A DNA stretch of 64,000 bases from Acidobacteriota bacterium (GTDB lineage Bacteria > Acidobacteriota > Thermoanaerobaculia > Multivoradales > J023). Location: NCBI GenBank assembly GCA_038748685.1, contig JBCDIS010000002.1:2226-66225 (forward strand), read 5' to 3'. Below, in pieces: positions 4,737 to 25,374 of the stretch. How positions within the stretch are numbered: the first letter of the stretch is position 1; every line of letters begins with the position of its first letter. Position numbers and translations under genes: made by a program. The notes beneath the pieces are model-generated. The model was not told where the DNA came from and made no database searches. It worked only from the letters and a program-made list of their open reading frames with translations.

Positions 4737-4868
4737 GAAGGTGACGGCTCCGGAATTCTGGGTGGGGTGCGCCGGGGGGGAAGGCCCCGCAAGCGGAGGG
4801 CTCAGAAAGGGTTACGGGTGAGCTTCGCCCAAGGTTCTAGCCCTGGGGCGGGGGAGGGTCGCGGCGGC

Positions 4869-6023: not shown

Positions 6024-6035
6024 GGAATCAAGATA

Positions 6036-7076
6036 TCAGACCTGGGGCGTCGTCCCCGTCGTCGTTTCAGCCGGCACCACGCCGAGCCCCGGTCGGTCCG
6101 GCGGCACCATGCGCCCCCCTTCGAGGCGGGCTCCGTCGAAGGGGTCGTCGGCGATCAGCAAGGGGCCGTCGAGGTCGACGAAATCCACCAGGGGCGCCAG
6201 GTGTGCCGCCGCCGTCACCGCCAGGGAAGTCTCCACCATGCACCCCAGCATGATCTGCAGGCCGTGGGCCCTGGCCGTGGCGATCATCCGCAGCGCCTCG
6301 CCGACGCCGCCGCATTTCATCAGCTTGACGTTGATGCCGTCGAAGGCGTCCGCCAGCCTGGGGATGTCCTGTGCCCGGTGGACGCTCTCGTCGGCGAAGA
6401 TCGGCAGGGGGCTTCGCCGGCGCAGGGCCCGGGCCCCCGCCAGGTCATCGGCGGGGAGGGGCTGCTCCACCCACTCGACCCCCATCGACGCCAGCCATGC
6501 GAGCCGCTCCTCGGCGCCTTCCAAGGTCCAGCCCTCGTTGGCGTCCACCCGGATCGTCTGGTCGGTCACGTCCCGCACCGCCTCCAGCATCCCGCGGTCG
6601 TCGTCCGCCCCCATCTTCACCTTCAGGATCTCGAAGTCCCCCGCCCCCCGGGCCTTCTCGGCCATCCCCTCCGGCGTGCCCATGCCGAGGGTGAAGGAGG
6701 TCGGCGGCGCCGCCTTCGGATCGAGCCCCAGCAGGTCGTAGAGGGGCGCATTCAGGCGTTTGCCGGCGAGGTCCCGAAGCGCCATGTCCACCGCCGCCTC
6801 GGCGGCCCCCTGACCCGGCACCGCGGCCCGGGCGGCGGCCCCGTCGAATCGCCGCGGGTCGAAGGAGCCGAGGGCCTCCGCCATGGCCTCCACCGCCCCC
6901 GCCGTCGACCCGCGATCCTGCCCGTAGCGGGGCAGGGGCGCCGCCTCCCCGAGGCCGATGCGCTGGCCGTCGTCCACCTCCACCAGCAGGTTCTCCCGCC
7001 GGTCCGTGACCCCCCGGGCCAGCCGGAACGGGTGGAGCAGACGCAGGTCCAGGGGCCGGTGGCGGATCTGGATCAC
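6036..7076 (-). CDS. L-Ala-D/L-Glu (dipeptide) epimerase, enolase superfamily
   Basis: 346 aa. Enolase-superfamily capping plus TIM barrel, KVKMG...DANEGW...FADES...KLMKCGG motifs typical of YcjG/YkfB dipeptide epimerases. ATGA start/stop overlap with the upstream serine hydrolase. Confidence 0.8.
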   Translation of the reverse strand: MIQIRHRPLDLRLLHPFRLARGVTDRRENLLVEVDDGQRIGLGEAAPLPRYGQDRGSTAGAVEAMAEALGSFDPRRFDGAAARAAVPGQGAAEAAVDMALRDLAGKRLNAPLYDLLGLDPKAAPPTSFTLGMGTPEGMAEKARGAGDFEILKVKMGADDDRGMLEAVRDVTDQTIRVDANEGWTLEGAEERLAWLASMGVEWVEQPLPADDLAGARALRRRSPLPIFADESVHRAQDIPRLADAFDGINVKLMKCGGVGEALRMIATARAHGLQIMLGCMVETSLAVTAAAHLAPLVDFVDLDGPLLIADDPFDGARLEGGRMVPPDRPGLGVVPAETTTGTTPQV

Positions 7077-8581
7077 GGCTCCGGGTCCCGCACCGGCGTC
7101 AAGTACTCGTAGCGCTTGCGCAGTCGCTGCACCCGTCCGTCGTCATCGAGCTCGAAGACCACGGTCTCGCCGTCCCCCATGCGGAAGGTGTGCTCCCCCG
7201 CCGGCTCCAGCGGGGTCACGCTGCCGTCGGGGTCGTCGTCCGGTGGATAGCTGTGCTCGTACAACACCAGCTGGCCGTCCAGGACCATCGCCCGCGCTTC
7301 CCAGCCCCAGGGGTCGGTGTAGGTGCCGAGGTAGCGGTCCCAGGCCGGATCGGCCACCTTCGGCTGGGCCGGCGCCGCCGTGGCCGCCGCCAGGGCCGGT
7401 GCCACCGCGTCGTACGCCCGGCGACCGAAAAACGTGGGGCTAGCGTCGTCGGCGTTGGTGACCACGATCACGGCGAGGTCCTCGTCGGGCACAAGGAGGA
7501 AGTGCGTGCGGTGTCCGCCCACCCAGCCGCCGTGGGCGACGTAAGTGGTGCCGCCGCGCCTCGACACCGCGAAGCCGAGGCCGCGACCGCCGCTCCAGTC
7601 GTCCCGCACCCAGTGGGGGCGGTGCATCTCGCGGACCGTGGCGGGGCGCAGCACCGGGCCGTCGGCGGGGGCTTCGGCGAGGTGTAGGACGGCGAACCGC
7701 GCCAGGTCCACGACGCTCGACACGATCTGCGCCGCCGGGGCCACGGCCCGGGTCTCGTAGTAGAGGCTCTCCTGCCGCTGCCCGCCCCGCTGCCGCAGAT
7801 AAGCCGTCGCCAGCCGTTCGAGGGTCTCGGCGTCGGGGGCGGCGCGGCTATGGTCCATACCGAGGGGGGCGAAGATCTGGCTCTCCACGAACTCCGCCCA
7901 CGTCGTCCCCGACACCGCCGCCACCACCTCGCCGAGGAGGGTCATCCCCAGGTTGGAGTATTTGTAGCGCTCCCCGGGGGGGAAGATTGCCGTCTGCCCC
8001 GGCAGGGCCGCGATCAGCTCTTCCCGGGTGGGACAGTCATGGGTGGTCCAGTAGGGGAAGGCCCCCTCCCGCGGCAGACCCGAGGTGTGGGTCAGGAGGT
8101 GGCGGATCGTGATCTCGGGGACGTCCTCGAATGGACTCTGGATGGCAAACCACGGCAGGTGACGCGCCACCGGGTCGTCGAGCCGTAGCAGCCCGCGGTC
8201 CCGCAGCTGGAGGATCGCCGTCGAGGTGAACAGCTTGGTCACCGAGCCGATGCGGTACAGCGTGTCTGGGGCCGCCGGCGCGCCGGTGTCGAGGTCGGCG
8301 ACGCCGTAGCCCTTCGCCCAGAGGAGCTCTTGGCCTTGGACGATGCCGATCGACAGCCCCGGGATGCCGCGGTGCGCACGCTGCTCTTCGATCCAAAGGT
8401 CCAGCAGCGTCAGTGCGGCGGCCACCTTCGGATGCTCCGCCAGCGCTGCCCCACTCTGTGTGTGGGCGTTCTGGATGGGGGCAGCTTGGCTGACGTCGGC
8501 CCGAGTGACCGAGGTCCACGGGAGGGCACAAGCCACGGAGAGGGCGAGGGGGAGGATGCAGGTGCGGAGGTTCCTGGGCAT
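7073..8581 (-). CDS. Serine hydrolase, class C beta-lactamase / D-aminopeptidase-like
   Basis: Signal peptide (MPRNLRTCILPLALSVACALP), S-x-x-K active site (GSVTKLFT), YSN motif (YKYSNLG), HGG (VAHGGWVGG). Start set at internal ATG 8581. The 8644 start would add a non-signal extension. Confidence 0.8.
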   Translation of the reverse strand: MPRNLRTCILPLALSVACALPWTSVTRADVSQAAPIQNAHTQSGAALAEHPKVAAALTLLDLWIEEQRAHRGIPGLSIGIVQGQELLWAKGYGVADLDTGAPAAPDTLYRIGSVTKLFTSTAILQLRDRGLLRLDDPVARHLPWFAIQSPFEDVPEITIRHLLTHTSGLPREGAFPYWTTHDCPTREELIAALPGQTAIFPPGERYKYSNLGMTLLGEVVAAVSGTTWAEFVESQIFAPLGMDHSRAAPDAETLERLATAYLRQRGGQRQESLYYETRAVAPAAQIVSSVVDLARFAVLHLAEAPADGPVLRPATVREMHRPHWVRDDWSGGRGLGFAVSRRGGTTYVAHGGWVGGHRTHFLLVPDEDLAVIVVTNADDASPTFFGRRAYDAVAPALAAATAAPAQPKVADPAWDRYLGTYTDPWGWEARAMVLDGQLVLYEHSYPPDDDPDGSVTPLEPAGEHTFRMGDGETVVFELDDDGRVQRLRKRYEYLTPVRDPEP

Positions 8582-8647
8582 GTTGACGATCCTATCGCCC
8601 GGCGCGGGTCGGTCCGCTGCCCTGCCCCCGCGGTTCCTGGCCAATAG

Positions 8648-10124: not shown

Positions 10125-10336
10125 CGCTTGTCATGATGTTTGGGCCTGTTTTTGAATTGATGGACCGGACCAGGCGTACTCGGCCTGGGTAACCTTTGAG
10201 ATCAAAAGACCCGACTGCGATCAAGTTGTTGCGCGTAGGCGTCAAGCGCCCCGATCCACTGACCACATCTCGTTCGAGGAGGAGCAGCCTAGTTCTATGG
10301 TGGAACTGGACGTGCAGCCGAGACTCTAGGGAAAAG

Positions 10337-11821: not shown

Positions 11822-12092
11822 GTTGTGGAACCCTCCCTGGAAGCAACTTCACACCAAAATTAGCCTAAAAATCTGACCTCGTCAATCATTAGGGCTTTCT
11901 GTAGAGTAATCATGAGCAATTGATCTTGGTGCCCGGTCTCAGCCGCGGAGCGGCGACCTTCCGCTAGCTGGGGGCGCGAGCCCCCAGACCCTCAGATCCC
12001 CAGACCTTCCTAGAACCGGAGCACCCCAAGGCCCACCTCCCCACCGCGTTTCGCGGCGATACACTCTGGCCCCATCTGAAACTGAGGAACCC

Positions 12093-13910
12093 ATGCACCT
12101 TCAAACCATCGACTGGATCGTCGTCTGCGCCGTCCTCGGCCTGTCCCTGGCCATCGGCGGATGGGCGGCGCGGCGGGCCGGGGCCAGCGCCGGGGAGTTC
12201 TTCCTCTCCGGCCGCAACATGCCCTGGTGGCTGCTGGGGGTGTCGATGGTGGCGACGACGTTCTCCACCGACACGCCGAACCTGGTGACCGACATTGTGC
12301 GCACCCACGGCGTCGCCGGCAATTGGGTGTGGTGGGCCTTCCTGCTCACCGGCATGGCGACGACCTTCGTCTACGCGCGGCTGTGGCGTCGCTCCGGGGT
12401 GGAGACCGACGTGGGCTTCTACGAGCTGCGGTACTCCGGGCGCTCGGCGGCGTTCCTGCGGGGGTTCCGGGCGGTCTACCTCGGGGCGTTCTTCAACGTC
12501 ATGATCATGGCCACCGTGACCCTCGCGGCGATCAAGCTGGGGGGAGCCCTGTTGGGGCTGTCCCCGGTGACGACGGTGGCGGTGGCGGGCACGGTGACGG
12601 TGATCTACTGCATGCTCGGTGGGCTCACGGGGGTGATCGTCGCCGACTTCCTTCAGTTCGGCCTGGCGATGGCGGGGTCCCTGGCGGCGGCGTGGTACGC
12701 CCTCGATCGGCCCGAGGTGGGGGGGCTCGAAGGGCTGCTGAGCCACCCCGACGTCGCCCCGCGGCTCGCCCTGGTGCCGGACCCATCGGACACGGGGCTC
12801 CTGGTGAGCCTCCTGGTGGTTCCGCTGGCGGTGCAGTGGTGGAGCGTCTGGTACCCGGGGGCGGAGCCCGGAGGGGGTGGCTACGTGGCCCAGCGGATGC
12901 TGGCGGCCCGCAGCGAGGGGCATGCCCAGGGGGCGACGCTGCTATTCAACGTGGCCCACTACGCCCTGCGGCCCTGGCCTTGGATCCTGGTGGCCCTGGC
13001 GTCGATCCTGGTGTTTCCGGATCTCGATTCCCTGCGGCGGGCCTTCCCCGCCGCCGACCCGTCGGTGGTGGGTCACGACATGGCCTACGCCGCCATGCTC
13101 ACCTTCCTGCCGGCGGGGCTCCTCGGTCTGGTGGTGGCGTCCCTGGCGGCGGCCTATATGTCGACGATGTCGACCCACCTCAACTGGGGGGCGTCCTACC
13201 TGGTCCACGACGTTTACCGCCGTTTCGTCGATCCAGGGGCGACGGAGCGCCAGCTGGTGCGGGTCGGCCGGGCGTCGACGGTGGTGCTGATGGCCCTCGC
13301 CTGCGGGGTGTCCCTGCTGCTGTCGAACGCCCTCCAGGCGTTCCAGATCTTGCTCCAGATCGGCGCCGGGACGGGTCTACTCTTCCTGCTGCGCTGGTTC
13401 TGGTGGCGGGTGAACGCCGCCGCCGAGCTGGTGGCCATGGGGGTGTCGTTCCTCGTGGCGTTGTACCTACAGTTTTTCCACGACAGTCTCTTCGACTTCC
13501 CCCTGGCGGACTGGCAGCGGCTGGTGCTCGGCGTCGGCGTGACCACCGCGGCTTGGCTGGCGGCGGCGCTGCTCGGTCCGCGGACCGACGAGGCGGTGCT
13601 GCGGAGCTTCGTGCGTACCGTTCGGCCCGATGGCCCGGGGTGGAGGGCGGTGCGTCGTCGCGCCGCCGCCGAGGGCGTGCCCCTGCCGGAGGGACCCTCC
13701 GAGCTGCCCCTCGGCATTGCCTGCATGGTGCTGGGGTCGACGGCGGTCTACTCCGCCCTCTTCGCCACCGGGCGCTTCCTCTACGGCCAACCGGCCTCCG
13801 GCGCGGTCCTCGCGTTCTGCGCCGTGGCCTGCGCTTACGGCATTCGACGGCTCTGGGGTCGCCGCCCCTCGGGACGCCCGCCCTCGTCGCGCCAGGGGGT
13901 GACGGCGTGA
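12093..13910 (+). CDS. Sodium:solute symporter family (SSF) transporter
   Basis: 605 aa, about 14 TM helices, SSF signature region (GEFFLSGRNMPWWLLGVSMVATTFSTDTPNLV). RBS GAGGAA precedes the ATG. Its stop overlaps the start of the next gene (GTGA). Confidence 0.85.
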   Translation: MHLQTIDWIVVCAVLGLSLAIGGWAARRAGASAGEFFLSGRNMPWWLLGVSMVATTFSTDTPNLVTDIVRTHGVAGNWVWWAFLLTGMATTFVYARLWRRSGVETDVGFYELRYSGRSAAFLRGFRAVYLGAFFNVMIMATVTLAAIKLGGALLGLSPVTTVAVAGTVTVIYCMLGGLTGVIVADFLQFGLAMAGSLAAAWYALDRPEVGGLEGLLSHPDVAPRLALVPDPSDTGLLVSLLVVPLAVQWWSVWYPGAEPGGGGYVAQRMLAARSEGHAQGATLLFNVAHYALRPWPWILVALASILVFPDLDSLRRAFPAADPSVVGHDMAYAAMLTFLPAGLLGLVVASLAAAYMSTMSTHLNWGASYLVHDVYRRFVDPGATERQLVRVGRASTVVLMALACGVSLLLSNALQAFQILLQIGAGTGLLFLLRWFWWRVNAAAELVAMGVSFLVALYLQFFHDSLFDFPLADWQRLVLGVGVTTAAWLAAALLGPRTDEAVLRSFVRTVRPDGPGWRAVRRRAAAEGVPLPEGPSELPLGIACMVLGSTAVYSALFATGRFLYGQPASGAVLAFCAVACAYGIRRLWGRRPSGRPPSSRQGVTA

Positions 13911-16900
13911 GGGGGCTCTGGCGGGTGCTCGTGCTTGCGGTGGCGGTCGTCTCGGCGCCGGCTCTCTCCGCGGCGCCGGTGCAAGACTCCCTGCTGAGCG
14001 ACGGGGCGGCGTGGGTCGAGGAAACCCTCCAGCGCCTGACCCTGGAGCAGAAGGCGGCGCAGCTGGTGATGGTGCGGTCCTTCGGTCAGCACGCCCACCC
14101 CCGCTCGGAGACGCGGACCGAGCTGCGGCGTCTCGTCTCAGAGGTGGGGGTCGGCGGCGTGGTGGTCTTCGACTCGGACCTCGAGTCCATCCCGTCGCTG
14201 CTGGCGGACCTGCAGCGGGCGGCCGTGGACGGACCGTCAGAGGTGCCGTTGCTGGTGGCCTCGGACCTCGAGCGGGGGCTGAGCTTTCGGGTGCGGCGCG
14301 GGTCGGTGCCCCTGCCGACGGCCCTGGCGGTAGGGGCCACCGGCTCGGCGGAGGCGGCGCGGTTCTACGGTGAGGTGACGGCCCGGGAGGCGCGGGCGGT
14401 GGGGATCCACTGGGTGTTCGCGCCGGTGGCGGACGTCAACAGCAATCCGGCGAACCCGGTGATCCACGTGCGCTCCTTCGGCGAGGATCCTGGCCGCGTG
14501 GGGGACATGGTGGCGGCCTTCGTCGAGGGTGCCCGGGGGGACGACCTGGCGAAAACGGGGGTGATGACGTCGGCCAAGCACTTCCCCGGCCACGGGGACA
14601 CCGCCATCGACAGCCACGTCTCCCTACCGACCCTGGAGGTCGACCGGGCTCGCCTCGACGCCATGGAGCTGGTGCCCTTTCGCCGCGCCATCGAGGCGGG
14701 GGTGGATTCCGTGATGCTCGGCCATGTCTCGGTGCCGGCCCTCGATCCGTCGGGGGCCCCGGCCACCCTGTCGCCGGCCATGGTCACCGATCTGCTGCGC
14801 CGTGACCTGGGGTTCGGCGGGCTGGTGGTGACCGACGCCATCGAGATGGCGGCCCTCGACGGGGTGGCCCCCGGGTGGGACGGCGGCGCGGCGGTGGCGG
14901 CGGTGATCGCCGGGGCCGACGTCGTCCTTCTGCCCAAGGATACTCGGGCAGCGGTCCAGGCCCTGGCCAGCGCGGTGCGGGAGGGGCAGCTCACCGAAGG
15001 GCGCCTCGACGCTTCGGTGCGGCGGGTGCTGGAGGCGAAGGCCAGGCTCGGGCTGCATCGAGATCGGAGCCCGGAGCCAAGGCTCGGGGAAATCGCCCGG
15101 CCGGAGGACCTGGCCCGCGCTGCGGAGATGGCCCGGGAGTCGGTCACCCTCGTACGGGACAGGGACGACCTGGTGCCGTTGCCGATGGAGGAGCCCCTGC
15201 GGCTGCTGCACGTGGCGGTCACCGGACGCAGCACGGAATGGGTCACCGACGCGCTGGAGGCCCGGGGGGTCGACGTCGCGACCCGGCGCCTCGGCTGGGA
15301 GGTCTCGGAGGCCACCGCCGGCAACATCCTGGCCCGGGCCCCCAAATTCACCCATATCGTGGTGTCTTCCTTCGGGCGGACGCCGGGGGCGGAGCTGTCG
15401 TCGTCGGCCCTCTATCTGCTGAAGCGATTGATGCGCTTGCGGGATGACGGCGGGCCGCCGGTGATTCTCCTGGGGCTCAGCAGCCCGTACCTGCTGGCGA
15501 AGCTGCCCGGCGCCCCAACCTACCTCTGCACCTACGGCTCGGCCTCGACCAGCCAGGAGGCGGCGGTTGCTGCGCTCTTGGGGGAGACGGCGGTGGGGGG
15601 ACGGCTGCCGGTGACGCTGCCCGGCCTCTATCCGTTGGGTCACGGGCTGGATCGTCCCCGCCGGGACCTGACCCTAGGGGAGGCGCCGATGGACGACGCT
15701 GCGGAATACCCAATGGCGGAGGTGGATCGTCTACTCGAAGGTTTCGTGGCGGAGGGAGCGTTCCCCGGGGCGGTCCTCGCGGTGGGCCACCGCGGTCGGC
15801 TCGTCCACCACCGGGCCTACGGGCGGCTGTCGTACGACGACGGCGCCCCCGCGGTGGAGGTCGAGACGCGGTACGACCTCGCCAGCCTCACCAAGGTGAT
15901 CGCCACCACCACCATGGCGATGATCTTGGTGGACGAAGGCCGCCTAGACCTCGACCTGCCGGTGCGGGCCGTGCTGCCCCGCTTCGAGGGTCCGGGGAAG
16001 GAAGCGGTCACCGTCCGCCATCTCTTGACCCACGCCTCGGGGGTCGACTGGTGGGCTCCGCTCTACGAAGAGCTAGAAGGGAAGGACGCCTACCTCGAAC
16101 GGATCCAGGCCATGGACCTGGTGGCGGAGCCGGGTACCGTCACCCGCTACAGCGACCTCGGGGTGATGCTCCTGGGGGAGGTCTTGGAGCGGGTGGCGGG
16201 GGAGCCGCTGGACGTCTTTGTGGAGCGGCGGGTCTTCGGCCCCCTCGGCATGGGGGCCACGGGCTTCCTGCCGAACCGGGCCCTGTGGAGCGCCATCGCC
16301 CCCACCGAGCGGGATCCTTGGCGGGGTCGGGTGCTCCAGGGGGAGGTCCACGACGAGAACGCCCACGCTCTGGGCGGCGTTGCCCCCCACGCGGGCCTCT
16401 TCGGCACCGCCGGTGATCTCTCCCGCTTCGCCCAGATGCTGCTGTGGGGGGGCGCCTATGACCACCATCGCCTCGTGTCGCGGCCGACGGTGGAGGCGTT
16501 CACCCGTCGCGCCGGCGTGGTGGAGGGGTCGGACCGCGCCCTCGGTTGGGACACCAGGTCTGCCACCGGGTCGTCCGCCGGGGGTCTTTTCTCCCCGGAT
16601 TCCTTCGGCCACACCGGCTTCACCGGGACGTCGATGTGGATCGATCCGAAGCGGGAGCTCTTCGTCGTCCTGCTCACCAATCGGGTCCACCCGACGCGGG
16701 AGAACCGGCGGATCCGCCAGGTGCGACCCGCCGTCCACGACGCGGTGGTGCGGGCTCTGGGACTGGTGGAGAAGCAGGCGGGCCAGGTGGAGGTGGGGCT
16801 GGACCGACTGGCGTCTGGGGACGCAGACGTCTTGGCTCAGCTGGAGGGGCGTCGCCTCGGTCTGGTGGCCCACGCCGCGTCCCTCACCGCGGACGGTCGC

Positions 16901-17944
16901 CACGCCATCGACGTGCTGCGGGGTCTGGGCCTCGATCTGGTGCGGCTCTTCGGGCCGGAGCACGGCCTGCGGGGGCGGGCCGCGGCGGGGGAGTCGGTGG
17001 ACGACGGCGTCGACCCGCGGAGCGGCCTGCCGGTGGTGAGCCTCTACGGCGCCCGCCGGGCCCCGTCCCCTGAGGACCTCGCCGATCTCGATGCCTTGGT
17101 ATTCGACCTACAGGGGGCCGGGGTCCGTTTCTACACCTACGTCAGCACCCTGCTCCTCTGCCTCGACGCCGCCGCCGAGGCCGGTCTGCCCCTGGTGGTC
17201 CTCGATCGTCCCAATCCCCTCGGGGGGGAGCGGATCGAAGGACCGGTGTCGGCGCCGCGGGACGAGGTGGCCGCCAGCTTCCTCAACCTGGCGCCGGGTC
17301 CCCTCGTCCACGGCCTGACCCTCGGCGAGATGGCGCGGTACGCCAACGCCCGGAGGGAGCGTCCCGTCGAGCTTCGCGTGGTGCCGATGGGGGGCTGGAC
17401 CCGTTCGATGACCTGGTTCGACACTGGGCTACCGTGGACAGCGCCGTCGCCGAACCTGCGTTCCCCCGAGGCGGCCCTGGTCTACCCCGGGGTGGCGTTT
17501 CTGGAGGCCACCAACGTTTCGGAGGGTCGCGGCACCGAAGCCCCGTTTCTGCGGGTGGGGGCGCCGTGGCTCGACGGCGCTGCGGACCCGCCGACGGTCC
17601 CGGGGGTGGAGCTGACGCCCACCCGCTTCGAGCCGAAGTCTTCGCCGGCGGCGCCGTCCCCCAAGCACCTGTGGAGGACCTGCGACGGCTGGCGCCTAGA
17701 CGTGACGGATCCGAAACAGGTAGAGCCGTACCGCCTCGGCCTCACCCTGCTGAAGGCACTGTCGACGCACCCGGAGTTCACCTGGCGCGACCGCGGCGAG
17801 GCCCTCACCCGCCTGCTGGGTACCCCCGCGGTGCTAGAAGCCCTCGAACGGGGGGACCCGGTGGACGACGTGGTTGCCGCCGACGTCCCCGGTCACCGGG
17901 AGTGGCGAGAGGCCCGGCGTTCGTCGCTCCTCTATCCAGAGTAG
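13907..17944 (+). CDS. Secreted tri-domain peptidoglycan-fragment hydrolase: GH3 NagZ-like beta-N-acetylglucosaminidase + beta-lactamase-fold (AmiE/AmpH-like) + DUF1343/NamZ-like exo-beta-N-acetylmuramidase
   Basis: 1345 aa from GTG 13907 (signal peptide MRGLWRVLVLAVAVVSAPALSAAP). GH3 motifs (KHFPGHGDTAIDSH) in aa 30-600. Serine beta-lactamase fold with S-x-x-K (DLASLTKVIATT), YSN-like (RYSDLG) and HTG (GHTGFTGTS) in aa 610-960. DUF1343/YbbC-like region in aa 975-1345. The 1927-aa ORF in the track is an artefact of an upstream extension in the same frame. Confidence 0.85.
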   Translation: MRGLWRVLVLAVAVVSAPALSAAPVQDSLLSDGAAWVEETLQRLTLEQKAAQLVMVRSFGQHAHPRSETRTELRRLVSEVGVGGVVVFDSDLESIPSLLADLQRAAVDGPSEVPLLVASDLERGLSFRVRRGSVPLPTALAVGATGSAEAARFYGEVTAREARAVGIHWVFAPVADVNSNPANPVIHVRSFGEDPGRVGDMVAAFVEGARGDDLAKTGVMTSAKHFPGHGDTAIDSHVSLPTLEVDRARLDAMELVPFRRAIEAGVDSVMLGHVSVPALDPSGAPATLSPAMVTDLLRRDLGFGGLVVTDAIEMAALDGVAPGWDGGAAVAAVIAGADVVLLPKDTRAAVQALASAVREGQLTEGRLDASVRRVLEAKARLGLHRDRSPEPRLGEIARPEDLARAAEMARESVTLVRDRDDLVPLPMEEPLRLLHVAVTGRSTEWVTDALEARGVDVATRRLGWEVSEATAGNILARAPKFTHIVVSSFGRTPGAELSSSALYLLKRLMRLRDDGGPPVILLGLSSPYLLAKLPGAPTYLCTYGSASTSQEAAVAALLGETAVGGRLPVTLPGLYPLGHGLDRPRRDLTLGEAPMDDAAEYPMAEVDRLLEGFVAEGAFPGAVLAVGHRGRLVHHRAYGRLSYDDGAPAVEVETRYDLASLTKVIATTTMAMILVDEGRLDLDLPVRAVLPRFEGPGKEAVTVRHLLTHASGVDWWAPLYEELEGKDAYLERIQAMDLVAEPGTVTRYSDLGVMLLGEVLERVAGEPLDVFVERRVFGPLGMGATGFLPNRALWSAIAPTERDPWRGRVLQGEVHDENAHALGGVAPHAGLFGTAGDLSRFAQMLLWGGAYDHHRLVSRPTVEAFTRRAGVVEGSDRALGWDTRSATGSSAGGLFSPDSFGHTGFTGTSMWIDPKRELFVVLLTNRVHPTRENRRIRQVRPAVHDAVVRALGLVEKQAGQVEVGLDRLASGDADVLAQLEGRRLGLVAHAASLTADGRHAIDVLRGLGLDLVRLFGPEHGLRGRAAAGESVDDGVDPRSGLPVVSLYGARRAPSPEDLADLDALVFDLQGAGVRFYTYVSTLLLCLDAAAEAGLPLVVLDRPNPLGGERIEGPVSAPRDEVAASFLNLAPGPLVHGLTLGEMARYANARRERPVELRVVPMGGWTRSMTWFDTGLPWTAPSPNLRSPEAALVYPGVAFLEATNVSEGRGTEAPFLRVGAPWLDGAADPPTVPGVELTPTRFEPKSSPAAPSPKHLWRTCDGWRLDVTDPKQVEPYRLGLTLLKALSTHPEFTWRDRGEALTRLLGTPAVLEALERGDPVDDVVAADVPGHREWREARRSSLLYPE

Positions 17945-17983
17945 TCCTTACCCGGAGTCGTCCTGCCCTGGAGCCTCGCTTGT

Positions 17984-18382
17984 GGGTCGTCCCGCGGTTC
18001 TGCGCGCGGCCTGCAAAACTCGCGGGTTCGTTGTGGCTTGGGCGTTGCCGTGTCCAGGTTCAGGGCGTCCTACCGAATCGGCCGCTGTTCCAGCTCGGAC
18101 AGTTTCGGCCGTGCTCGAATCCGCGGGACTCGCTCGACCGCTGTTTGAATGGTGAAAGGCCGGGGTCGGGTCGTCCCGCGGTTCTGCGCGCGGTCTGCAA
18201 AACTCGCGGGTTCGTTGGGGCTGGGCGTGGTCGTGCCCAGGTTCAGGGCGTCCTACCGAATCGGCCGTTGTTCCAGCTCGGACAGTTTCGGCCGTGCTCG
18301 AATCCGCGGGACTCGCTCGACCGTTGTTTGAATGGTGAAAGGCCGGGGTCGGGTCGTCCCGCAGTTCTGCGAGCGGCTGACG
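17984..18382. repeat. Tandem direct repeat, 184-bp unit, 2.2 copies, in convergent intergenic region
   Basis: Copies start at 17984, 18168 and 18351 (the last truncated after about 32 bp). Copies 1 and 2 are about 95% identical. Each unit starts with GTCCCGCGG and contains its reverse complement CCGCGGGAC about 135 nt downstream. Confidence 0.8.
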
Positions 18383-18388
18383 TTCTTC

Positions 18389-21356: not shown

Positions 21357-23618
21357 TCAGGCCCGCTGGCGGATCATCAGGACGGCGGTCTGGCTGCCGC
21401 GGATCACGCCGGCGGGTATGCGGCCGAAGACGCGGCGGTGGCGCTGGCGGCTGAGGCCTAGGACGACGAGGTCGACATCGGCGGCGTGCTCCACCACCGC
21501 GTCCACCACGCTGTCCCGGCGGACCACCTTGACCTCGTGGCGGCCGCTGGCCTCGTCGTCCGCTAGGAGCTGGATCTCCCGTTCCAGCCAGGCTTCTTGG
21601 TCGGCGTCGGCCCCGGGTAGGGAAATGCCGAGGTAGCGGACCTCTAGATCTTGGGTCCGCAGGAGGCTGCCGAGGAGGCGGGCCCGCAGGCTGCTCTGGT
21701 CCCGCCGGCCCCCCACCGGCACCAGCACCCGGCGCACCGTCGACGGACGCCAGCCGTCGGGGGCCCGCAGCAGAACGACGTCGCTGGCCACCTCCCGCAT
21801 GAGCCACTCGAGGCTGGCTCCGAGGGCTTCGGGGTCGAGCCCGTCGTCGTTCCCGGCGTCGTCCGTCTGGAGGTCCCCCAGGCCCAGCAGCAGGCTCTCG
21901 CAGCGGTAGGTCTGGGCCACCCGGCGGATGTCCCGCCAGGGATCCTTGGCCACCGTCACCAGGGCTTCCGGTGACAGCTCGGCGGCGAAGGCGGTGGTGA
22001 GGGACTCCCCCAGCACCTGCTGGGCGTAGGCGAGCTGGGGGGGCACCTGGTCGGGGCGCCAGGTCTCCGGCGTCCGCACCACTGAGAGCAGCAGCACCCG
22101 GCCCACCTGGGCCGGCGCCAGGGCGTTCGCCACCATCACCATCGATTCGGCGCTGGCGGGGTTGGCGATGGGGACGAGCACCAGGGGGCTGCGGCCCCGC
22201 AGTCGCACGAGGGTCGGGTCGAGGGCTTCGGCGGCGGCGTCCGCCACCTGGGCGCGGCGGGAGAAGATCGCGTAGTAGAGCCCGCCCCCCGCCGCCAGCC
22301 AGGCGAGGGCGATGCCGCCGGCGGCGGGGACGCTCAGGCCCTGGAAGAGGGCGAGGGCGAGGCAGGCGAGGCCGCCCACCGCGGGCACCAGGGGAAAGAG
22401 GGGCAGGCGAAGGGACTCGGAACGGCCGCCGCCGCGGCGCCGGGCGAGGATGTTGGTCCAGTGGGCGAGGGCGAAGGAGATCAGGAAAATCAGGCTCGAA
22501 GCGGCGCCGGCGGCGGCGACGTCGGGGATCGCGAGGACCGCCACCACCACCGTGGCGGAGGTCAGGAGCACCGCCGCCACCGGGGTGCCGCGGGCTTCGT
22601 CGAGCTGCCGCAGGCGGGCCGGCAGGTTGCGATCCCGGGCCATCACCAGGGCGATGTGGGACGACGCCAGCAGGTTCGCCTGCAGGGCCGACGCCATCGC
22701 TAGCACCGCCGCCAGGATCACCAGCCAGAAGCCGGTCTTCCCGAGGTACGCCTCCGCCGCGATGGCCACCACCGCCTCCGGGTCGGCGCTCGCCATGGCG
22801 GCGATGTCGGTCCCCTCGGGGACCCCCACGGTGGAGATCAGGAAAAGCAGGGGCAGGTAGATCAGAAGGGCCAGGACCAGCGACGCCACCATGGCCCGGG
22901 GCAGATTGCGGCGGGGTTCCTTCACCTCGCCGGCGACGGCGGCGATGAGGTCGAACCCCTGGAGGGCGATGAAGGTGTAGCCCATGGCCTGGAGCAGGCC
23001 CATGCCGCCGCCGGAGAAGAAGGGGTCGAGCCGCTGCCGGATCGCCCCCTCCGGCAGGCTCGGCAGGGCCCACAGACCGCCGGCGATGAGCACGGCGAAG
23101 ACCACCACCTTGCCCACGGTCTCCCACTGGCCGCCGCCGCCGGGGCGGCGGGCCAGGCCCCAGGTGTAGAAGGCCGTCGCCCCCAGGGCCAGGAGGGTCA
23201 CGCACTCGCCGCCGCGGATCCACGTCGGCGGCGCGCCGGCCACCTGGCCCCACACCGCCTCCAGCACGATGGCGGCGAAGGTGCCGAAGCCGAGGGCGTA
23301 GAGCACCGCCGCCATGATCGAGGCGAACCACACCACCCAGCCCACCATGAAGGCCGTCTCCACCGACAGCACCTTCTTGGCGAAGGTGTAGGTGCCCCCC
23401 GACTCGGGGAACGAGGTGGCCATCTCGGCGAAGGTGAGGGCCGTCAAGAGGGCGATGAAGCCGTTCAAGGCGAAGGCCACCAGGGCGCCAGGGCCGGTGA
23501 CCGCGAAGGCGACCCCCGCCAGGGCCAGGATGCCGCCGCCGACGATGGCGCCGACGCCGATGCCGGTGGCCCCCAGGAGGCCGATGTGCCGGGGGTCCGA
23601 AGGGGGGAGACTGCTCAT
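21357..23618 (-). CDS. APC-family amino acid permease fused to tandem C-terminal universal stress protein (UspA) domains
   Basis: 753 aa. About 12 TM helices (GIGVGAIVGGGIL...), then two Usp-like alpha/beta regions (VLVPIANPASAE...; VLVPVGGRRDQSS...VLGLSRQ). Stop of the upstream SSF gene is 7 bp away. Confidence 0.8.
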   Translation of the reverse strand: MSSLPPSDPRHIGLLGATGIGVGAIVGGGILALAGVAFAVTGPGALVAFALNGFIALLTALTFAEMATSFPESGGTYTFAKKVLSVETAFMVGWVVWFASIMAAVLYALGFGTFAAIVLEAVWGQVAGAPPTWIRGGECVTLLALGATAFYTWGLARRPGGGGQWETVGKVVVFAVLIAGGLWALPSLPEGAIRQRLDPFFSGGGMGLLQAMGYTFIALQGFDLIAAVAGEVKEPRRNLPRAMVASLVLALLIYLPLLFLISTVGVPEGTDIAAMASADPEAVVAIAAEAYLGKTGFWLVILAAVLAMASALQANLLASSHIALVMARDRNLPARLRQLDEARGTPVAAVLLTSATVVVAVLAIPDVAAAGAASSLIFLISFALAHWTNILARRRGGGRSESLRLPLFPLVPAVGGLACLALALFQGLSVPAAGGIALAWLAAGGGLYYAIFSRRAQVADAAAEALDPTLVRLRGRSPLVLVPIANPASAESMVMVANALAPAQVGRVLLLSVVRTPETWRPDQVPPQLAYAQQVLGESLTTAFAAELSPEALVTVAKDPWRDIRRVAQTYRCESLLLGLGDLQTDDAGNDDGLDPEALGASLEWLMREVASDVVLLRAPDGWRPSTVRRVLVPVGGRRDQSSLRARLLGSLLRTQDLEVRYLGISLPGADADQEAWLEREIQLLADDEASGRHEVKVVRRDSVVDAVVEHAADVDLVVLGLSRQRHRRVFGRIPAGVIRGSQTAVLMIRQRA

Positions 23619-23625: not shown

Positions 23626-25080
23626 TCACGGGTCTTCCCGGGGCCAGGGGAGGCTGGCGGCGAGTCCGGTGGCGAAGGTGATGCCGGAGCCGACGAGGGC
23701 GTACCAGGGCCAGGCGAGGGACGTGCCGAAGAATACGGTGGTCATCACCGCGAGGCCCACCACCAGCCCGGCGAGGGCGGCCCGCTGGCCCACCCGGGGG
23801 GCGAAGGCGCCGAGGAAGAAGACCCCGAGGACGATGCCGGTGGTGAAGGCGGCGATGCCGAGAACGCTGGCCACCACCGACGACGCCAGCCACTGGCCGC
23901 CGATGCCGACGGCGATCTGGACGAGGCCGAAGACCACGGTGAGGCCCCGGGTGAGGCGCAGCTGGCGCTCGGGGGAGACGTCCTTTTGGGCGGTGCGGCC
24001 GGCGGCGGGGAGGAAGAAATCCCGCACCGCGGCGGTGGCGCAGGAGTTGAGGGAGCTCGACAGGGTCGACATGGCGGCGGCGAAGACCGCCCCCAGCAGC
24101 AGCCCGAGGAGCCCCGTCGGCACGTGGTCGAGGATGAAGCGGGCGAAGACCCTGTCGGTCCGCTCGAAGGCCGTCTCCGGCGGGAAGGTTTGGTAGAAGG
24201 TGAACAGGGCGACCCCGAGCACCAGGAAAGCGGCGAATTGGGCGAACACCACCAGCCCGCTGGACCACACCGCCCGCCGGGCGTCCGCCAGCCCCCGGGC
24301 GCAGAGGTACCGCTGGACCAGCATCTGGTCGACGCCGTGGGACCCGAGGGTGATGAAGGCGCCCCCCAGGAGTCCCGCCCAAAGGCCGTAGGGCTCGCTC
24401 CAGTCGAGCCGCAGATCCAAGGCCCGCCACTTTCCGGCCTCGGCCCCCGTCGCCACCACCTGCCCCCAGCCGCCGGGGAGCAGATCGAGGAGCACGACGA
24501 AGGCCACCGTCGCCCCCGCCATGTAGACCACGAACTGCACGAGGTCGGTCCACAGCACCGCCCGCATGCCGCCGAGGAAGGTGTAGACGATGGTGACGGC
24601 GCCGATGGACGCCACCGCCAGGGGAAACGCCAGGCCCGTCATCTCTTGGAGGACGATGGCCGAGAGGAACAGGCGCAGGCCGTCCGCCAGGCTGCGGGTG
24701 ACGATGAACAGGGCCGACGCCGCCCGCTTGGCGGCGGCGCCGAAGCGGCGGTCGAGGACTTCGTAGGCGGTGAAGAGGGAACCTTCGAAGTACTGCGGCA
24801 GCAGCACGTAGGCCACCACGAAGCGGCCCACCACGAAGCCGAGGGCGATCTGTAGCCAGGTGATGTCCCGCCCGAAGGCGAAGCCGGGGATGCTCAGGAA
24901 GGTGACCGTCGACGTTTCGGTGGCGACGATCGAGACCAGGATCAGCCACCAGGGCCGGTCGCGGCCGCCCACCACGTAGTCGGCGAAATCGCGGCTCCGG
25001 CGGCCGACCCAGAGCCCGAGGCCGACGACCCCCGCAAGGTAGGCGAGGAGCACGGCGAGGTCGAGAAAGCTCAGGCTCAC
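23626..25080 (-). CDS. Sodium:solute symporter family transporter
   Basis: 484 aa, GTG start. SSF motifs (GGRDRPWWLILVSIVATETSTVTFLSIPG). Confidence 0.8.
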   Translation of the reverse strand: MSLSFLDLAVLLAYLAGVVGLGLWVGRRSRDFADYVVGGRDRPWWLILVSIVATETSTVTFLSIPGFAFGRDITWLQIALGFVVGRFVVAYVLLPQYFEGSLFTAYEVLDRRFGAAAKRAASALFIVTRSLADGLRLFLSAIVLQEMTGLAFPLAVASIGAVTIVYTFLGGMRAVLWTDLVQFVVYMAGATVAFVVLLDLLPGGWGQVVATGAEAGKWRALDLRLDWSEPYGLWAGLLGGAFITLGSHGVDQMLVQRYLCARGLADARRAVWSSGLVVFAQFAAFLVLGVALFTFYQTFPPETAFERTDRVFARFILDHVPTGLLGLLLGAVFAAAMSTLSSSLNSCATAAVRDFFLPAAGRTAQKDVSPERQLRLTRGLTVVFGLVQIAVGIGGQWLASSVVASVLGIAAFTTGIVLGVFFLGAFAPRVGQRAALAGLVVGLAVMTTVFFGTSLAWPWYALVGSGITFATGLAASLPWPREDP

Positions 25081-25374
25081 GGTGCCGTTCCCCTAGGGGG
25101 TCGACGCCTAGGGGCTGTGGTCTTCGCGGAGGTAGCTGGAGGGGAATCCACGTCGTCGGGCCTGAAACTCAAGGGATGTGGGCGGAGGAAACGGGGAGGC
25201 GCTTCGATTGCTCCCGTTTTCGGGCCGATGCTACTATTCCCGTGAAGTTCTAGTGAAAATGTTCATGGCCCCGGCGGTCAGCTTTGTCTTCTGCGGTTCG
25301 CGAGGTTCGGTCCCTGGGACCTGAATCCATCAGCCGCGGTGGGGCCCCGGGGCGAGCGCGAAAGGGACAACCGT

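What the first reader, a model, noticed from the sequence alone, without database searches (positions are those of the whole stretch)
12093..17944. Symporter coupled to a secreted NagZ-AmiE-NamZ triple fusion: a one-polypeptide muropeptide disassembly line
- Seen in sequence: a 1345-aa signal-peptide protein concatenates three domains. These are a GH3 domain (KHFPGHGD), a serine beta-lactamase fold (SLTK, HTG) and a DUF1343 domain. Its GTG start overlaps the stop of a sodium:solute symporter (GTGA), implying translational coupling.
- Established knowledge: B. subtilis encodes NagZ, AmiE (a beta-lactamase-fold exo-MurNAc-L-Ala amidase) and NamZ (DUF1343 exo-beta-N-acetylmuramidase) as three separate proteins for exo-lytic peptidoglycan recycling. 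In Tannerella forsythia the MurNAc importer MurT is an SSF-family transporter.
- Inference: this locus fuses all three exo-enzymes and pairs them with a candidate MurNAc/amino-sugar symporter. That would form a compact scavenging module acting outside the cytoplasmic membrane. I do not know of a characterised three-domain fusion of this kind.
- The same window also carries an L-Ala-D/L-Glu epimerase, a serine hydrolase and an OPT peptide transporter, so the cell-wall salvage theme extends beyond this locus.
Basis: partly seen in the sequence, partly recalled or inferred. Interest (0 to 1): 0.75.

Follow-up and report, generated by a model that had tools for sequence, protein, structure and literature searches.

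The report
Fused three-enzyme cell-wall recycling protein
One exported 1345-residue protein joins the three enzymes that take bacterial cell wall apart sugar by sugar.

Summary
ORF 13907-17944 (+) is one uninterrupted gene. It encodes a signal peptide, a two-domain GH3 NagZ, an S12 beta-lactamase-fold domain and a GH171 NamZ. All catalytic motifs are intact, and its GTG start overlaps the TGA stop of symporter 12093-13910.

The fusion is not a one-off. More than 100 protein clusters, mostly from Thermoanaerobaculia MAGs, share the architecture. Other phyla carry a NagZ plus beta-lactamase-fold double fusion with a separate NamZ. The domain order matches the published reaction order NagZ, AmiE, NamZ.

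The transporter reading needs revision.
- **Symporter 12093:** it most resembles the neutral-sugar transporter vSGLT. It is linked to the fusion only in a subclade, usually with a periplasmic M14 peptidase gene in between, and that gene is missing here.
- **Symporter 23629-25092 (-):** it most resembles the sialic-acid transporter SiaT. It stays near the fusion across phyla, next to a MurK-like kinase and, in three relatives, MurQ. It is the better MurNAc-importer candidate.

This window lacks the kinase, MurQ, NagB and YdjC found in relatives.

No paper describing the triple fusion was found, although automatic annotation already names all three domains. I rate it a new variant of a known pathway, of moderate interest.

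The parts
13907..17944 (+). Gene for the 1345-aa exported NagZ / AmiE-like / NamZ triple fusion
   Evidence: Continuous ORF, uniform GC3, Pfam domains, and more than 100 full-length homologue clusters.
13907..13975 (+). Sec-type signal peptide, about residues 1-23 (MRGLWRVLVLAVAVVSAPALSAA)
   Evidence: Read from the sequence. Homologues have SPI-like or lipoprotein-like N-termini. No dedicated signal-peptide predictor was run.
14039..15652 (+). GH3 NagZ module. The N-terminal catalytic domain spans residues 45-376 and the C-terminal domain about 390-582. It carries the Asp-His dyad motif KHFPGHGDTAIDSH (14576-14617) and the nucleophile Asp310 in VVTDA (14825-14848).
   Evidence: Pfam PF00933. 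The alignment to B. subtilis NagZ (3bmx) puts D232/H234 and D318 on identical residues. These residues are invariant or nearly so in 61 homologues.
15722..16720 (+). S12 / beta-lactamase-fold domain (residues 606-938), the candidate exo-MurNAc-L-Ala amidase (AmiE-like). Motifs are SLTK (15884-15895), YSD (16148-16156) and HTG (16610-16618).
   Evidence: Pfam PF00144. The best NCBIfam match is PBP4B, below its cut-off. The motifs are invariant in homologues. A free-standing protein 46% identical sits in the unfused NamZ-kinase-MurQ-AnmK-NagZ cluster of L030.
16859..17935 (+). GH171 NamZ module (residues 985-1343) with the conserved Glu1018 in FGPEHG (16949-16966)
   Evidence: Pfam PF07075 and PF20732. 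PEHG aligns with 4k05 and 4jja. Foldseek gives target-normalised TM 0.84-0.87 to 4k05 and 4jja. PEHG is invariant in homologues.
12093..13910 (+). 605-aa sodium:solute symporter ('SSF603'), vSGLT-like. Its stop overlaps the start of the fusion gene.
   Evidence: Pfam SSF. Best solved relatives are vSGLT 2xq2/3dh4 and SGLT1/2. Orthologues lie upstream of M14 plus the fusion in L001, L043, L044 and L045, and directly upstream of a double fusion in L048.
23626..25092 (-). About 488-aa sodium:solute symporter ('SSF490'), SiaT-like. This is the transporter conserved with the fusion and the better MurNAc-importer (MurT-like) candidate.
   Evidence: Pfam SSF. Best solved relative is SiaT 5nv9, E 8e-51. 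Orthologues lie near the fusion in 12 Thermoanaerobaculia-type loci, directly after the double fusion in L019, L020, L028 and L029, and on the same locus 5 kb away in L018. A BcrAD_BadFG kinase is adjacent in 13 loci.
25246..28320 (+). TonB-dependent-receptor-like outer-membrane protein (CarboxypepD_reg plus Plug), divergent from SSF490. Candidate importer of peptidoglycan fragments.
   Evidence: Pfam. It is 55% identical to the receptor that closes the island in L043. Orthologues are also present in L001, L010, L012 and L044.
21357..23618 (-). Amino-acid permease with a C-terminal Usp domain, directly downstream of SSF490. Possible uptake of amino acids released from stem peptides.
   Evidence: Pfam AA_permease plus Usp. 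The same SSF490-then-AA_permease pairing occurs in Terriglobia locus L018. The role is inferred.
7073..8647 (-). Second beta-lactamase-fold serine hydrolase (AmpH / DD-peptidase-like), a conserved neighbour of the fusion
   Evidence: Pfam PF00144. The best NCBIfam match is AmpH, below its cut-off. Orthologues lie upstream of the fusion in L003, L011, L021, L024, L025, L043 and L044, and in L010 at the locus edge.
6036..7142 (-). Enolase-superfamily dipeptide epimerase (L-Ala-D/L-Glu epimerase or DgcA-like)
   Evidence: Pfam MR_MLE. NCBIfam matches are below their cut-offs. Orthologues lie in the same islands in L003, L006, L011, L021, L024 and L025.

Best explanation
The gene encodes a periplasmic, tri-functional exo-lytic peptidoglycan hydrolase. 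It combines the three steps of the Bacillus subtilis NagZ / AmiE / NamZ pathway in one polypeptide, in reaction order.
1. The GH3 module removes the non-reducing-end GlcNAc.
2. The S12 (beta-lactamase-fold) module cuts the stem peptide off the exposed MurNAc.
3. The GH171 module releases MurNAc, which exposes the next GlcNAc.

The likely substrates are glycan strands or muropeptides. They could come from the cell's own wall turnover or be imported through the neighbouring TonB-dependent receptor.

Two Na+-coupled symporters then probably take up the two sugars. The overlapping vSGLT-like SSF603 would carry neutral GlcNAc. The SiaT-like SSF490, 5.7 kb downstream, would carry carboxylated MurNAc. 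Amino-acid and peptide carriers would take the peptide products.

In relatives the cytoplasmic steps are encoded in the same island: a MurK/NagK-type kinase, the MurQ etherase, YdjC and NagB. In this genome they must lie elsewhere.

What is shown: the architecture, the intact catalytic motifs, the conservation and the gene neighbourhoods. What is inferred: the enzymatic activities, the periplasmic location, the substrate of each transporter, and any hand-over of intermediates between domains.
For: **The protein**
- Three-domain architecture, with all Pfam scores far above their cut-offs.
- The NagZ Asp-His dyad and the nucleophile Asp align with B. subtilis NagZ D232/H234/D318.
- The Glu of PEHG aligns with the DUF1343 structures 4k05 and 4jja.
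- SLTK, YSD and HTG are present in the middle domain.
- All of these residues are invariant or nearly invariant across 54-61 homologues.
- The published reaction order is 1 NagZ, 2 AmiE, 3 NamZ (PMC8054146, read). The domain order is the same.
- AF2 models are confident. The NagZ plus S12 part has pLDDT 91.6 and pTM 0.87. The S12 plus NamZ part has pLDDT 90.4 and pTM 0.77.
- The NamZ part matches 4k05 and 4jja with target-normalised TM 0.84-0.87.

**The neighbourhood**
- Relatives L043 and L044 carry this island: LdcA-like S66 | serine hydrolase | SSF603-M14-fusion | SSF490-NagB-YdjC-kinase-AgcS | MurQ-TBDR. MurQ scores above the NCBIfam cut-off.
- The unfused Symbiobacteriaceae cluster L030 reads Opp | Blac | NamZ-kinase-MurQ-AnmK-NagZ.
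- In Longimicrobiales and Gemmatimonas the order is double fusion, SSF490, BcrAD_BadFG kinase, with NamZ divergent.

**The transporters**
- SSF490 is closest to SiaT, NIS, SMVT and SMCT. SSF603 is closest to vSGLT and the SGLTs.
- The SiaT carboxylate ligands Ser60 and Thr63 are conserved in SSF490.
Against: - No activity has been measured for any member of this fused family.
- The amidase role of the middle domain rests on fold, motifs and gene context. The nearest solved folds are esterases: EstG and family VIII carboxylesterases.
- The second motif is YSD rather than the Y-x-N typical of class C enzymes.
- This window lacks M14, the kinase, MurQ, NagB and YdjC, so the downstream pathway is not shown for this organism.
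- Transporter substrates are guesses from the closest solved relatives. SiaT Arg135 and Gln82 are not conserved at the aligned positions of SSF490.
- SSF603 orthologues at 70% identity or less sit in unrelated neighbourhoods.
- pTM values come from two overlapping sub-models, not from the whole protein. Active-site geometry could not be measured.
Confidence: 0.72

Rival explanations
1. The overlapping symporter 12093-13910 is the MurNAc (MurT-like) importer, and together with the fusion it forms a self-contained two-gene scavenging module.
For: - The 4-nt GTGA overlap and an SD-like motif.
- SSF603 orthologues share contigs with fusions in at least 14 cases, judged by matching contig lengths.
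- SSF603 lies directly upstream of a fusion in L048.
Against: - SSF603 is closest to neutral-sugar carriers: vSGLT and SGLT1/2.
- In most relatives an M14 gene separates it from the fusion.
- It is absent upstream of the fusion in 10 loci that have 8 kb of flank.
- More distant orthologues lie in unrelated contexts.
- The symporter that co-occurs with the MurK-like kinase and MurQ is the other one, SSF490.
Confidence: 0.2
2. The middle domain is not a MurNAc-L-Ala amidase. It would be an esterase or another S12 hydrolase, for example a peptidoglycan O-acetyl esterase or a DD/DL-peptidase that trims stem peptides. Peptide removal from MurNAc would then be done by another enzyme.
For: - The nearest solved structures and sequences are esterases: EstU1 4ivi, EstG 7u1b, EstB.
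- All NCBIfam matches are below their cut-offs.
- YSD replaces the usual Y-x-N.
Against: - NamZ needs peptide-free terminal MurNAc, and B. subtilis uses a beta-lactamase-fold enzyme (AmiE) for exactly this step (PMC8054146).
- The S-x-x-K, Y-S-x, H-T-G motif set resembles S12 peptidases such as the Streptomyces R61 DD-peptidase, rather than the W-x-G of family VIII esterases. This is from my own knowledge plus the alignment.
- The domain is fused or adjacent to NagZ and NamZ in five phylum-level lineages.
- The best NCBIfam match is PBP4B.
Confidence: 0.15
3. The enzyme mainly degrades chitin or another GlcNAc-containing glycan rather than peptidoglycan, and the neighbouring genes form a general amino-sugar catabolic island.
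For: - GH3 NagZ-type enzymes also cleave chitooligosaccharides.
- Relatives encode YdjC (chitin-disaccharide-deacetylase-like) and NagB.
- The kinase's only NCBIfam match is NagK, and it is weak.
Against: - Characterised NamZ enzymes are MurNAc-specific (PMC8054146).
- MurQ, an LdcA-like S66 peptidase, M14, a dipeptide epimerase and AnmK accompany these genes in relatives.
- A peptide-cleaving fold has no role in chitin breakdown.
Confidence: 0.05

Closest known systems
Bacillus subtilis exo-lytic peptidoglycan recycling enzymes NagZ (YbbD), AmiE (YbbE) and NamZ (YbbC), from the operon murQ-murR-murP-amiE-nagZ-namZ (PMC8054146)
   Same: - The same three enzyme families, all secreted.
- The same sequential logic: GlcNAc, then peptide, then MurNAc, from the non-reducing end.
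- The NagZ module has the same two-domain build and Asp-His dyad as YbbD.
- The NamZ module keeps the PEHG glutamate.
   Different: - There they are three separate proteins. Here they form one 1345-aa chain in reaction order.
- The host is a diderm Acidobacteriota, so the protein would be periplasmic.
[quoted passage not shown]
- Orthology of the middle domain to AmiE was not tested directly.
Tannerella forsythia MurNAc salvage: NamZ1/NamZ2, AmpG and MurT-MurK-MurQ (bioRxiv 10.1101/2021.12.02.470905; PMC5790795; PMC7670621)
   Same: - A diderm with periplasmic GH171 enzymes.
- A sodium-symporter-superfamily MurNAc importer followed by a BcrAD_BadFG-type kinase and MurQ. Relatives of this window show SSF490 beside the kinase, with MurQ in the same cluster.
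   Different: - T. forsythia enzymes are separate proteins, and its MurNAc-L-Ala amidase is still unidentified.
- Similarity of SSF490 or SSF603 to Tf_MurT could not be measured here.
- This window itself lacks the kinase and MurQ.
Two-domain fusions catalogued in 2008: Glyco_hydro_3 plus S12 DD-peptidase (Bacteroides thetaiotaomicron NP_811352.1, Salinibacter ruber YP_444518.1) and DD-peptidase plus DUF1343 (YP_439122.1) (PMC2605481)
   Same: The same pairwise domain combinations. The NagZ plus S12 double fusion also occurs in Gemmatimonadota, Longimicrobiales, Terriglobia and some Thermoanaerobaculia, with NamZ encoded separately in several of them.
   Different: Those are two-domain proteins that were listed without a functional reading. 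The protein here carries all three modules.
Proteus mirabilis SiaT (PDB 5nv9) and Vibrio parahaemolyticus vSGLT (PDB 3dh4, 2xq2)
   Same: - Closest solved relatives of SSF490 (E 8e-51) and SSF603 (E 4e-31) respectively, aligned over nearly full length.
- SiaT carries an N-acetylated sugar acid, which is chemically closest to MurNAc. vSGLT carries a neutral hexose, which is closest to GlcNAc.
   Different: - Of the SiaT ligand residues, only Ser60 and Thr63 are kept. Arg135, Gln82 and Thr58 are not, so SSF490 is not a sialic-acid transporter.
- No substrate is shown for either protein.

Membership tests
GH3 NagZ-type beta-N-acetylglucosaminidase | Glyco_hydro_3 N-terminal catalytic domain scoring above the Pfam gathering score | tested here: met
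   PF00933, 278 bits against a cut-off of 27, residues 45-376.
GH3 NagZ-type beta-N-acetylglucosaminidase | NagZ signature K-H-[FI]-P-G-[HL]-G-x4-D-[ST]-H with the Asp-His dyad, plus the nucleophile Asp | tested here: met
   KHFPGHGDTAIDSH (residues 224-237) and VVTDA (Asp310) align with B. subtilis NagZ D232/H234 and D318. They are invariant or nearly so in 61 homologues.
GH3 NagZ-type beta-N-acetylglucosaminidase | Hydrolysis of terminal beta-1,4-GlcNAc from muropeptides or pNP-GlcNAc | not testable with these tools
   Needs an enzyme assay.
AmiE-type exo-MurNAc-L-Ala amidase (beta-lactamase fold, MEROPS S12-like) | Beta-lactamase / transpeptidase fold with the S-x-x-K, Y-x-[ND] and [HK]-T-G motifs | tested here: met
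   PF00144, 240 bits. SLTK 660-663, YSD 748-750 and HTG 902-904 are invariant in homologues. The fold matches beta-lactamase-fold structures.
AmiE-type exo-MurNAc-L-Ala amidase (beta-lactamase fold, MEROPS S12-like) | Closer sequence relationship to B. subtilis AmiE (YbbE) than to esterases or class C beta-lactamases | not tested
   The YbbE sequence was not obtainable with the tools and no AmiE structure is solved. The best NCBIfam match is PBP4B at 164 bits, below its cut-off of 385.
AmiE-type exo-MurNAc-L-Ala amidase (beta-lactamase fold, MEROPS S12-like) | Conserved genomic association with nagZ, namZ and murQ | tested here: met
   It is fused to NagZ and NamZ here. A free-standing homologue, 46% identical, lies in the L030 cluster with NamZ, kinase, MurQ, AnmK and NagZ.
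AmiE-type exo-MurNAc-L-Ala amidase (beta-lactamase fold, MEROPS S12-like) | Amidase activity on MurNAc-peptides | not testable with these tools
   Needs an enzyme assay.
GH171 NamZ exo-beta-N-acetylmuramidase | NamZ_N (DUF1343) and NamZ_C domains scoring above the Pfam gathering scores | tested here: met
   PF07075, 239 bits against 26.9. PF20732, 112 bits against 25.
GH171 NamZ exo-beta-N-acetylmuramidase | Conserved glutamate at the tip of beta-strand 2 (B. subtilis NamZ Glu92, the putative catalytic residue) | tested here: met
   Glu1018 in FGPEHG aligns with PEHG of 4k05 and 4jja and is invariant in 54 homologues. Equating it with Glu92 is my inference from the motif.
GH171 NamZ exo-beta-N-acetylmuramidase | Conserved arginine of the C-terminal auxiliary domain (B. 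subtilis NamZ Arg279) | tested here: inconclusive
   An invariant Arg1208 in SEGRGT exists. Its correspondence to Arg279 was not established.
GH171 NamZ exo-beta-N-acetylmuramidase | The two-domain Rossmann-like fold of the DUF1343 crystal structures | tested here: met
   Foldseek gives target-normalised TM 0.84 to 4k05 and 0.87 to 4jja.
MurT-type sodium-symporter-superfamily MurNAc importer | Member of the sodium:solute symporter family | tested here: met
   Both SSF603 and SSF490 match PF00474.
MurT-type sodium-symporter-superfamily MurNAc importer | Gene adjacent to a MurK-type (BcrAD_BadFG) kinase and MurQ | tested here: inconclusive
   - Met for SSF490 orthologues in 13 relatives for the kinase and in 3 for MurQ.
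- Not met in this window, which has no kinase or MurQ.
- Not met for SSF603 in any locus.
MurT-type sodium-symporter-superfamily MurNAc importer | Sequence similarity to T. forsythia MurT (Tanf_08375) | not tested
   The sequence was not obtainable. The original paper (PMC5075041) is not held.
SiaT sialic-acid:Na+ symporter | Neu5Ac-binding residues Thr58, Ser60, Thr63, Gln82 and Arg135 | tested here: not met
   In SSF490 only Ser60 and Thr63 are conserved. Thr58 becomes Glu, Gln82 becomes Ala and Arg135 becomes Ala. It is SiaT-like in fold and branch, but not a SiaT.

The most novel reading that the evidence does not exclude
The three modules pack into a rigid single machine whose active sites pass the growing non-reducing end from one to the next. 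One polypeptide would then depolymerise peptidoglycan strands processively and completely, more efficiently than the three free enzymes. This would be a natural substrate-channelling exo-muralytic enzyme, used by Thermoanaerobaculia to feed on bacterial necromass imported through a dedicated TonB-dependent receptor.
Probability: 0.25. Interest if true: 0.65.

Novelty: new variant of a known kind. Interest (0 to 1): 0.45.

Why it matters
Exo-lytic peptidoglycan breakdown by NagZ, AmiE and NamZ has been worked out only in B. subtilis. NamZ has also been studied in T. forsythia, whose MurNAc-L-Ala amidase is still unidentified.

- **Independent support for the pathway.** A natural fusion of all three enzymes, in reaction order and conserved in a whole class of Acidobacteriota, is Rosetta-stone evidence that the beta-lactamase-fold amidase belongs with NagZ and NamZ in diderm bacteria too.
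- **A single-protein reagent.** It could be used to test whether proximity or channelling speeds up complete cell-wall depolymerisation.
- **Two candidate sugar importers.** The islands contain two distinct Na+ symporters that could be amino-sugar importers. Very few non-PTS MurNAc or GlcNAc transporters are known.
- **Ecology.** The islands mark Thermoanaerobaculia as likely consumers of peptidoglycan, a large pool of soil and sediment organic nitrogen.

None of this overturns current understanding. It extends a known pathway.

Tried and rejected
- **Frameshift or separate genes:** rejected. GC3 is uniform in one frame and full-length homologues are abundant.
- **The 1927-aa ORF 12161-17944 listed mechanically:** rejected as a high-GC artefact. 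Its upstream part has GC3 of 0.53.
- **Homologue search with SSF490 to reach Bacteroidota MurT:** the 120 listed hits were all close orthologues at 68% identity or more, so it gave no link to MurT.
- **The original MurT paper (PMC5075041) and the AmiE paper (PMC2901692):** neither is held, so no direct comparison with Tf_MurT or YbbE was possible.
- **NCBIfam on both symporters:** only superfamily-level or sub-threshold matches to PutP, PanF and ActP. There is no support for proline or pantothenate specificity.
- **Mapping SiaT ligand residues onto SSF490:** only partly conserved, so inconclusive for a carboxylate substrate.
- **Promoter and terminator consensus scan of 11700-18500:** nothing found.
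- **Rfam on the repeat region after the gene:** nothing found.
- **Foldseek against afdb50:** library unavailable.
- **Whole-protein structure prediction:** not possible because 1345 aa exceeds the 1200-aa limit. Two overlapping sub-models were used instead, and their coordinates could not be inspected, so active-site distances were not measured.
- **Search of this window for M14, S66, NagB, YdjC, kinase, AgcS and MurQ using the L043 proteins:** none found.

Full report
**1. The observation**

The window is about 70% G+C, so long spurious ORFs are common. The mechanical list shows a 1927-aa ORF at 12161-17944. Its upstream part has GC3 of only 0.53. From 13907 onward every 450-nt block has GC3 of 0.86-0.93 in a single frame.

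Translating 13907-17944 gives 1345 residues without a stop. The GTG at 13907 overlaps the TGA at 13908-13910 that ends the symporter gene 12093-13910, and an AGGGGG run lies 7 nt upstream.

Pfam finds four domains, all far above their cut-offs:
- Glyco_hydro_3, residues 45-376
- Beta-lactamase, residues 606-938
- NamZ_N, residues 985-1187
- NamZ_C, residues 1191-1343

The upstream protein is an SSF member. The N-terminus, MRGLWRVLVLAVAVVSAPALSAAP, looks like a Sec signal peptide.

**2. Are the three modules intact?**

- **NagZ module.** The GH3 region aligns with B. subtilis NagZ/YbbD (3bmx) across both of its domains. The Asp-His dyad (D232/H234) and the nucleophile (D318) fall on identical residues.
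- **NamZ module.** It aligns with the two DUF1343 crystal structures. FGPEHG lies over YGPEHG and FSPEHG. The NamZ paper names a glutamate at the tip of strand 2 (Glu92) as the putative catalytic residue (PMC8054146).
- **Middle module.** It has S-L-T-K, Y-S-D and H-T-G.

In alignments of 61 and 54 homologues these residues are invariant or nearly so.

AF2 models of two overlapping parts are confident. Residues 27-950 give pLDDT 91.6 and pTM 0.87. Residues 590-1345 give pLDDT 90.4 and pTM 0.77. I could not inspect the coordinates.

By Foldseek the NamZ part matches 4k05 and 4jja with target-normalised TM 0.84-0.87. The middle part matches beta-lactamase-fold esterases and class C enzymes. No AmiE structure exists.

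**3. How common is it?**

The homologue search returned 120 listed clusters, about 110 of which carry all three domains. Where sources give a name, they are mostly Thermoanaerobaculia or Acidobacteriota MAGs. JGI's automatic names already list 'beta-glucosidase-like glycosyl hydrolase / YbbC (DUF1343) / CubicO group peptidase'. Eight close relatives (62-65% identity) are NagZ plus S12 double fusions without NamZ.

A scan of species-representative genomes gave 42 loci:
- Triple fusions occur in Thermoanaerobaculia, 'Ca. Multivoradales' and 'Ca. Sulfomarinibacteraceae'.
- Double fusions occur in Terriglobia, Longimicrobiales and Gemmatimonadota, with a separate, divergently transcribed NamZ.
- A Symbiobacteriaceae locus (L030) is fully unfused: Opp-ABC | Blac | NamZ - BcrAD_BadFG kinase - MurQ - AnmK - NagZ. 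Its Blac protein is 46% identical to the middle module here.

**4. The neighbourhood, and which transporter**

Gene calls for two relatives (L043, L044) show a complete island:

S66 (LdcA-like) with NAGPA | serine hydrolase (-) | SSF (603 aa) - M14 peptidase - triple fusion (+; consecutive genes overlap by 4 nt) | SSF (490 aa) - NagB - YdjC - BcrAD_BadFG kinase - AgcS (-) | MurQ - TonB-dependent receptor (+)

MurQ and AgcS pass their NCBIfam cut-offs. The S66 domain, the kinase, YdjC and NagB match below theirs.

A tblastn synteny table over all loci shows the following.
- **M14:** directly upstream of the fusion in 14 loci.
- **603-aa symporter (orthologue of 12093-13910):** upstream of M14 in four loci (L001, L043, L044, L045), with a fragment at the edge of L012. 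It is absent from 10 loci that have 8 kb of upstream flank.
- **490-aa symporter (orthologue of window 23629-25092, minus strand):** within about 6 kb of the fusion in 12 Thermoanaerobaculia-type loci. It follows the double fusion directly on the same strand in L019, L020, L028 and L029, and lies 5 kb away on the same locus in L018.
- **BcrAD_BadFG kinase:** beside the 490-aa symporter in 11 loci by tblastn, and in L019 and L029 by Pfam.

The 603-aa symporter does share contigs with fusions in at least 14 metagenomic cases, judged by matching contig lengths. In L048 it overlaps a double fusion directly, without M14. At 70% identity or less, however, its orthologues sit between TerB and MatE genes in unrelated contexts.

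Against solved structures, the 490-aa protein is closest to the sialic-acid symporter SiaT (E 8e-51), followed by NIS, SMVT and SMCT1. Those transporters carry anions or carboxylates. The 605-aa protein is closest to vSGLT and SGLT1/2, which carry neutral sugars.

MurNAc carries a carboxylate and GlcNAc does not. The most economical assignment is therefore SSF490 for MurNAc (MurT-like) and SSF603 for GlcNAc. This is inference only. Just two of the five SiaT ligand residues are kept, and Tf_MurT could not be compared.

**5. What is special about this window**

tblastn with all L043 island proteins finds only five of them in the 64 kb: the serine hydrolase, SSF603, the fusion, SSF490 and the receptor. 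M14, S66, NagB, YdjC, the kinase, AgcS and MurQ are absent. Pfam scans of the remaining window ORFs agree.

A near-identical MAG contig carries the same pair of genes (P0001 and P0241, both on a 14,961-nt contig).

Here SSF490 is followed by an amino-acid permease with a Usp domain. The same pairing occurs in Terriglobia L018.

**6. Mechanism**

B. subtilis NagZ, AmiE and NamZ together digest intact peptidoglycan from the non-reducing end in the order 1 NagZ, 2 AmiE, 3 NamZ. Single enzymes release little (PMC8054146). The fused protein has its modules in that same order.

I propose a periplasmic cycle:
1. GlcNAc is removed.
2. The stem peptide is removed.
3. MurNAc is removed, and the cycle repeats.

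The cycle would be fed by wall turnover or by fragments imported through the adjacent TonB-dependent receptor. The products would be taken up by the two symporters and by amino-acid or peptide carriers. Cytoplasmic processing by kinase, MurQ, YdjC and NagB is documented only in relatives.

The periplasmic serine hydrolase (AmpH-like) and the cytoplasmic dipeptide epimerase in the window fit stem-peptide processing. Both are syntenic in relatives.

**7. Comparison with what is known, and novelty**

- Four full-text searches found no paper that describes or characterises the triple fusion. The NamZ papers do not mention fusions.
- A 2008 survey of serine-protease architectures lists the pairwise fusions Glyco_hydro_3 plus DD-peptidase and DD-peptidase plus DUF1343, without interpretation (PMC2605481).
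- The NamZ paper reports the family mainly in Bacteroidetes, with fewer in Firmicutes, Actinobacteria and gamma-proteobacteria. Acidobacteriota are not mentioned.

The finding is therefore a new architectural variant of a known pathway, in a lineage where that pathway has not been discussed. It is a useful Rosetta-stone link and a good experimental target, but not a new kind of system.

**8. Verdict**

| Item | Verdict |
|---|---|
| Observation | Confirmed |
| Enzyme reading | Sound (confidence about 0.7) |
| Transporter pairing | Should shift to, or at least include, the second symporter at 23629-25092 |
| 'Compact module' claim | Incomplete in this genome |
| Interest | 0.45 |

Noticed in passing
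window 17984-18377: A 183-bp tandem repeat (2.1 copies, 94% identical) fills the gap between the stop of the fusion gene and the end of the convergent CarboxypepD_reg gene. It has no Rfam match and no further copies in the window.
   Followed up: partly
window 51249-52883 (+): A glucose/sorbosone dehydrogenase (PF07995) gene is interrupted by an in-frame TGA at 52326-52328. The Pfam profile continues across the stop. It could be a pseudogene, a sequencing error or a recoded stop.
   Followed up: partly
window 10340-11311 (-) and 11315-11821 (-): Two adjacent paralogous proteins (34% identity, E 9e-20) with hydrophobic N-termini and no Pfam family lie between TspO and the symporter. A third ORF without a family is at 9349-10266.
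   Followed up: partly
window 2487-6035 (-): A trio resembling envC/ctp/yibQ: an M23 peptidase with a coiled-coil N-terminus, an S41 C-terminal processing protease with PDZ, and a divergent polysaccharide deacetylase. It lies directly beside the epimerase and serine hydrolase.
   Followed up: no
window 21357-23618 (-); L018 2882-4309: An amino-acid permease fused to a C-terminal universal stress protein domain follows the SiaT-like symporter. The symporter-then-permease pairing recurs in a Terriglobia MAG.
   Followed up: partly
L043 8343-10004 and 13 other loci: A roughly 550-aa M14 carboxypeptidase with a signal peptide is the most constant upstream partner of the fusion (14 loci). It has no NCBIfam match and is absent from this window. 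It may be an uncharacterised periplasmic stem-peptide peptidase.
   Followed up: partly
L043 2306-4861; L044 1188-3731: An 850-aa protein joins an LdcA-like S66 LD-carboxypeptidase to a NAGPA (phosphodiester glycosidase) domain, and in L044 also to a SPOR domain. This is another unusual cell-wall fusion in the same islands.
   Followed up: no
L043 16217-16978 and orthologues in L006, L010, L011, L012, L021, L024, L025, L044: A YdjC-family deacetylase sits between NagB and the kinase where NagA might be expected. It may stand in for GlcNAc-6-P deacetylase in these islands.
   Followed up: no
L019 and L028: In the Longimicrobiales locus L019 and the Gemmatimonadota locus L028, two GH3 modules lie in tandem before the beta-lactamase-fold module (tblastn shows two full GH3 matches). 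Class IV aminotransferase and M14 genes lie nearby.
   Followed up: no
window 35208-38273 (-), 41373-43199 (-), 32166-33821 (+): Two Ser/Thr protein kinases, one with a long TPR array, and an FHA-domain sigma-54 activator lie downstream of the island. A similar kinase and sigma-54 activator flank the fusion in L045.
   Followed up: no
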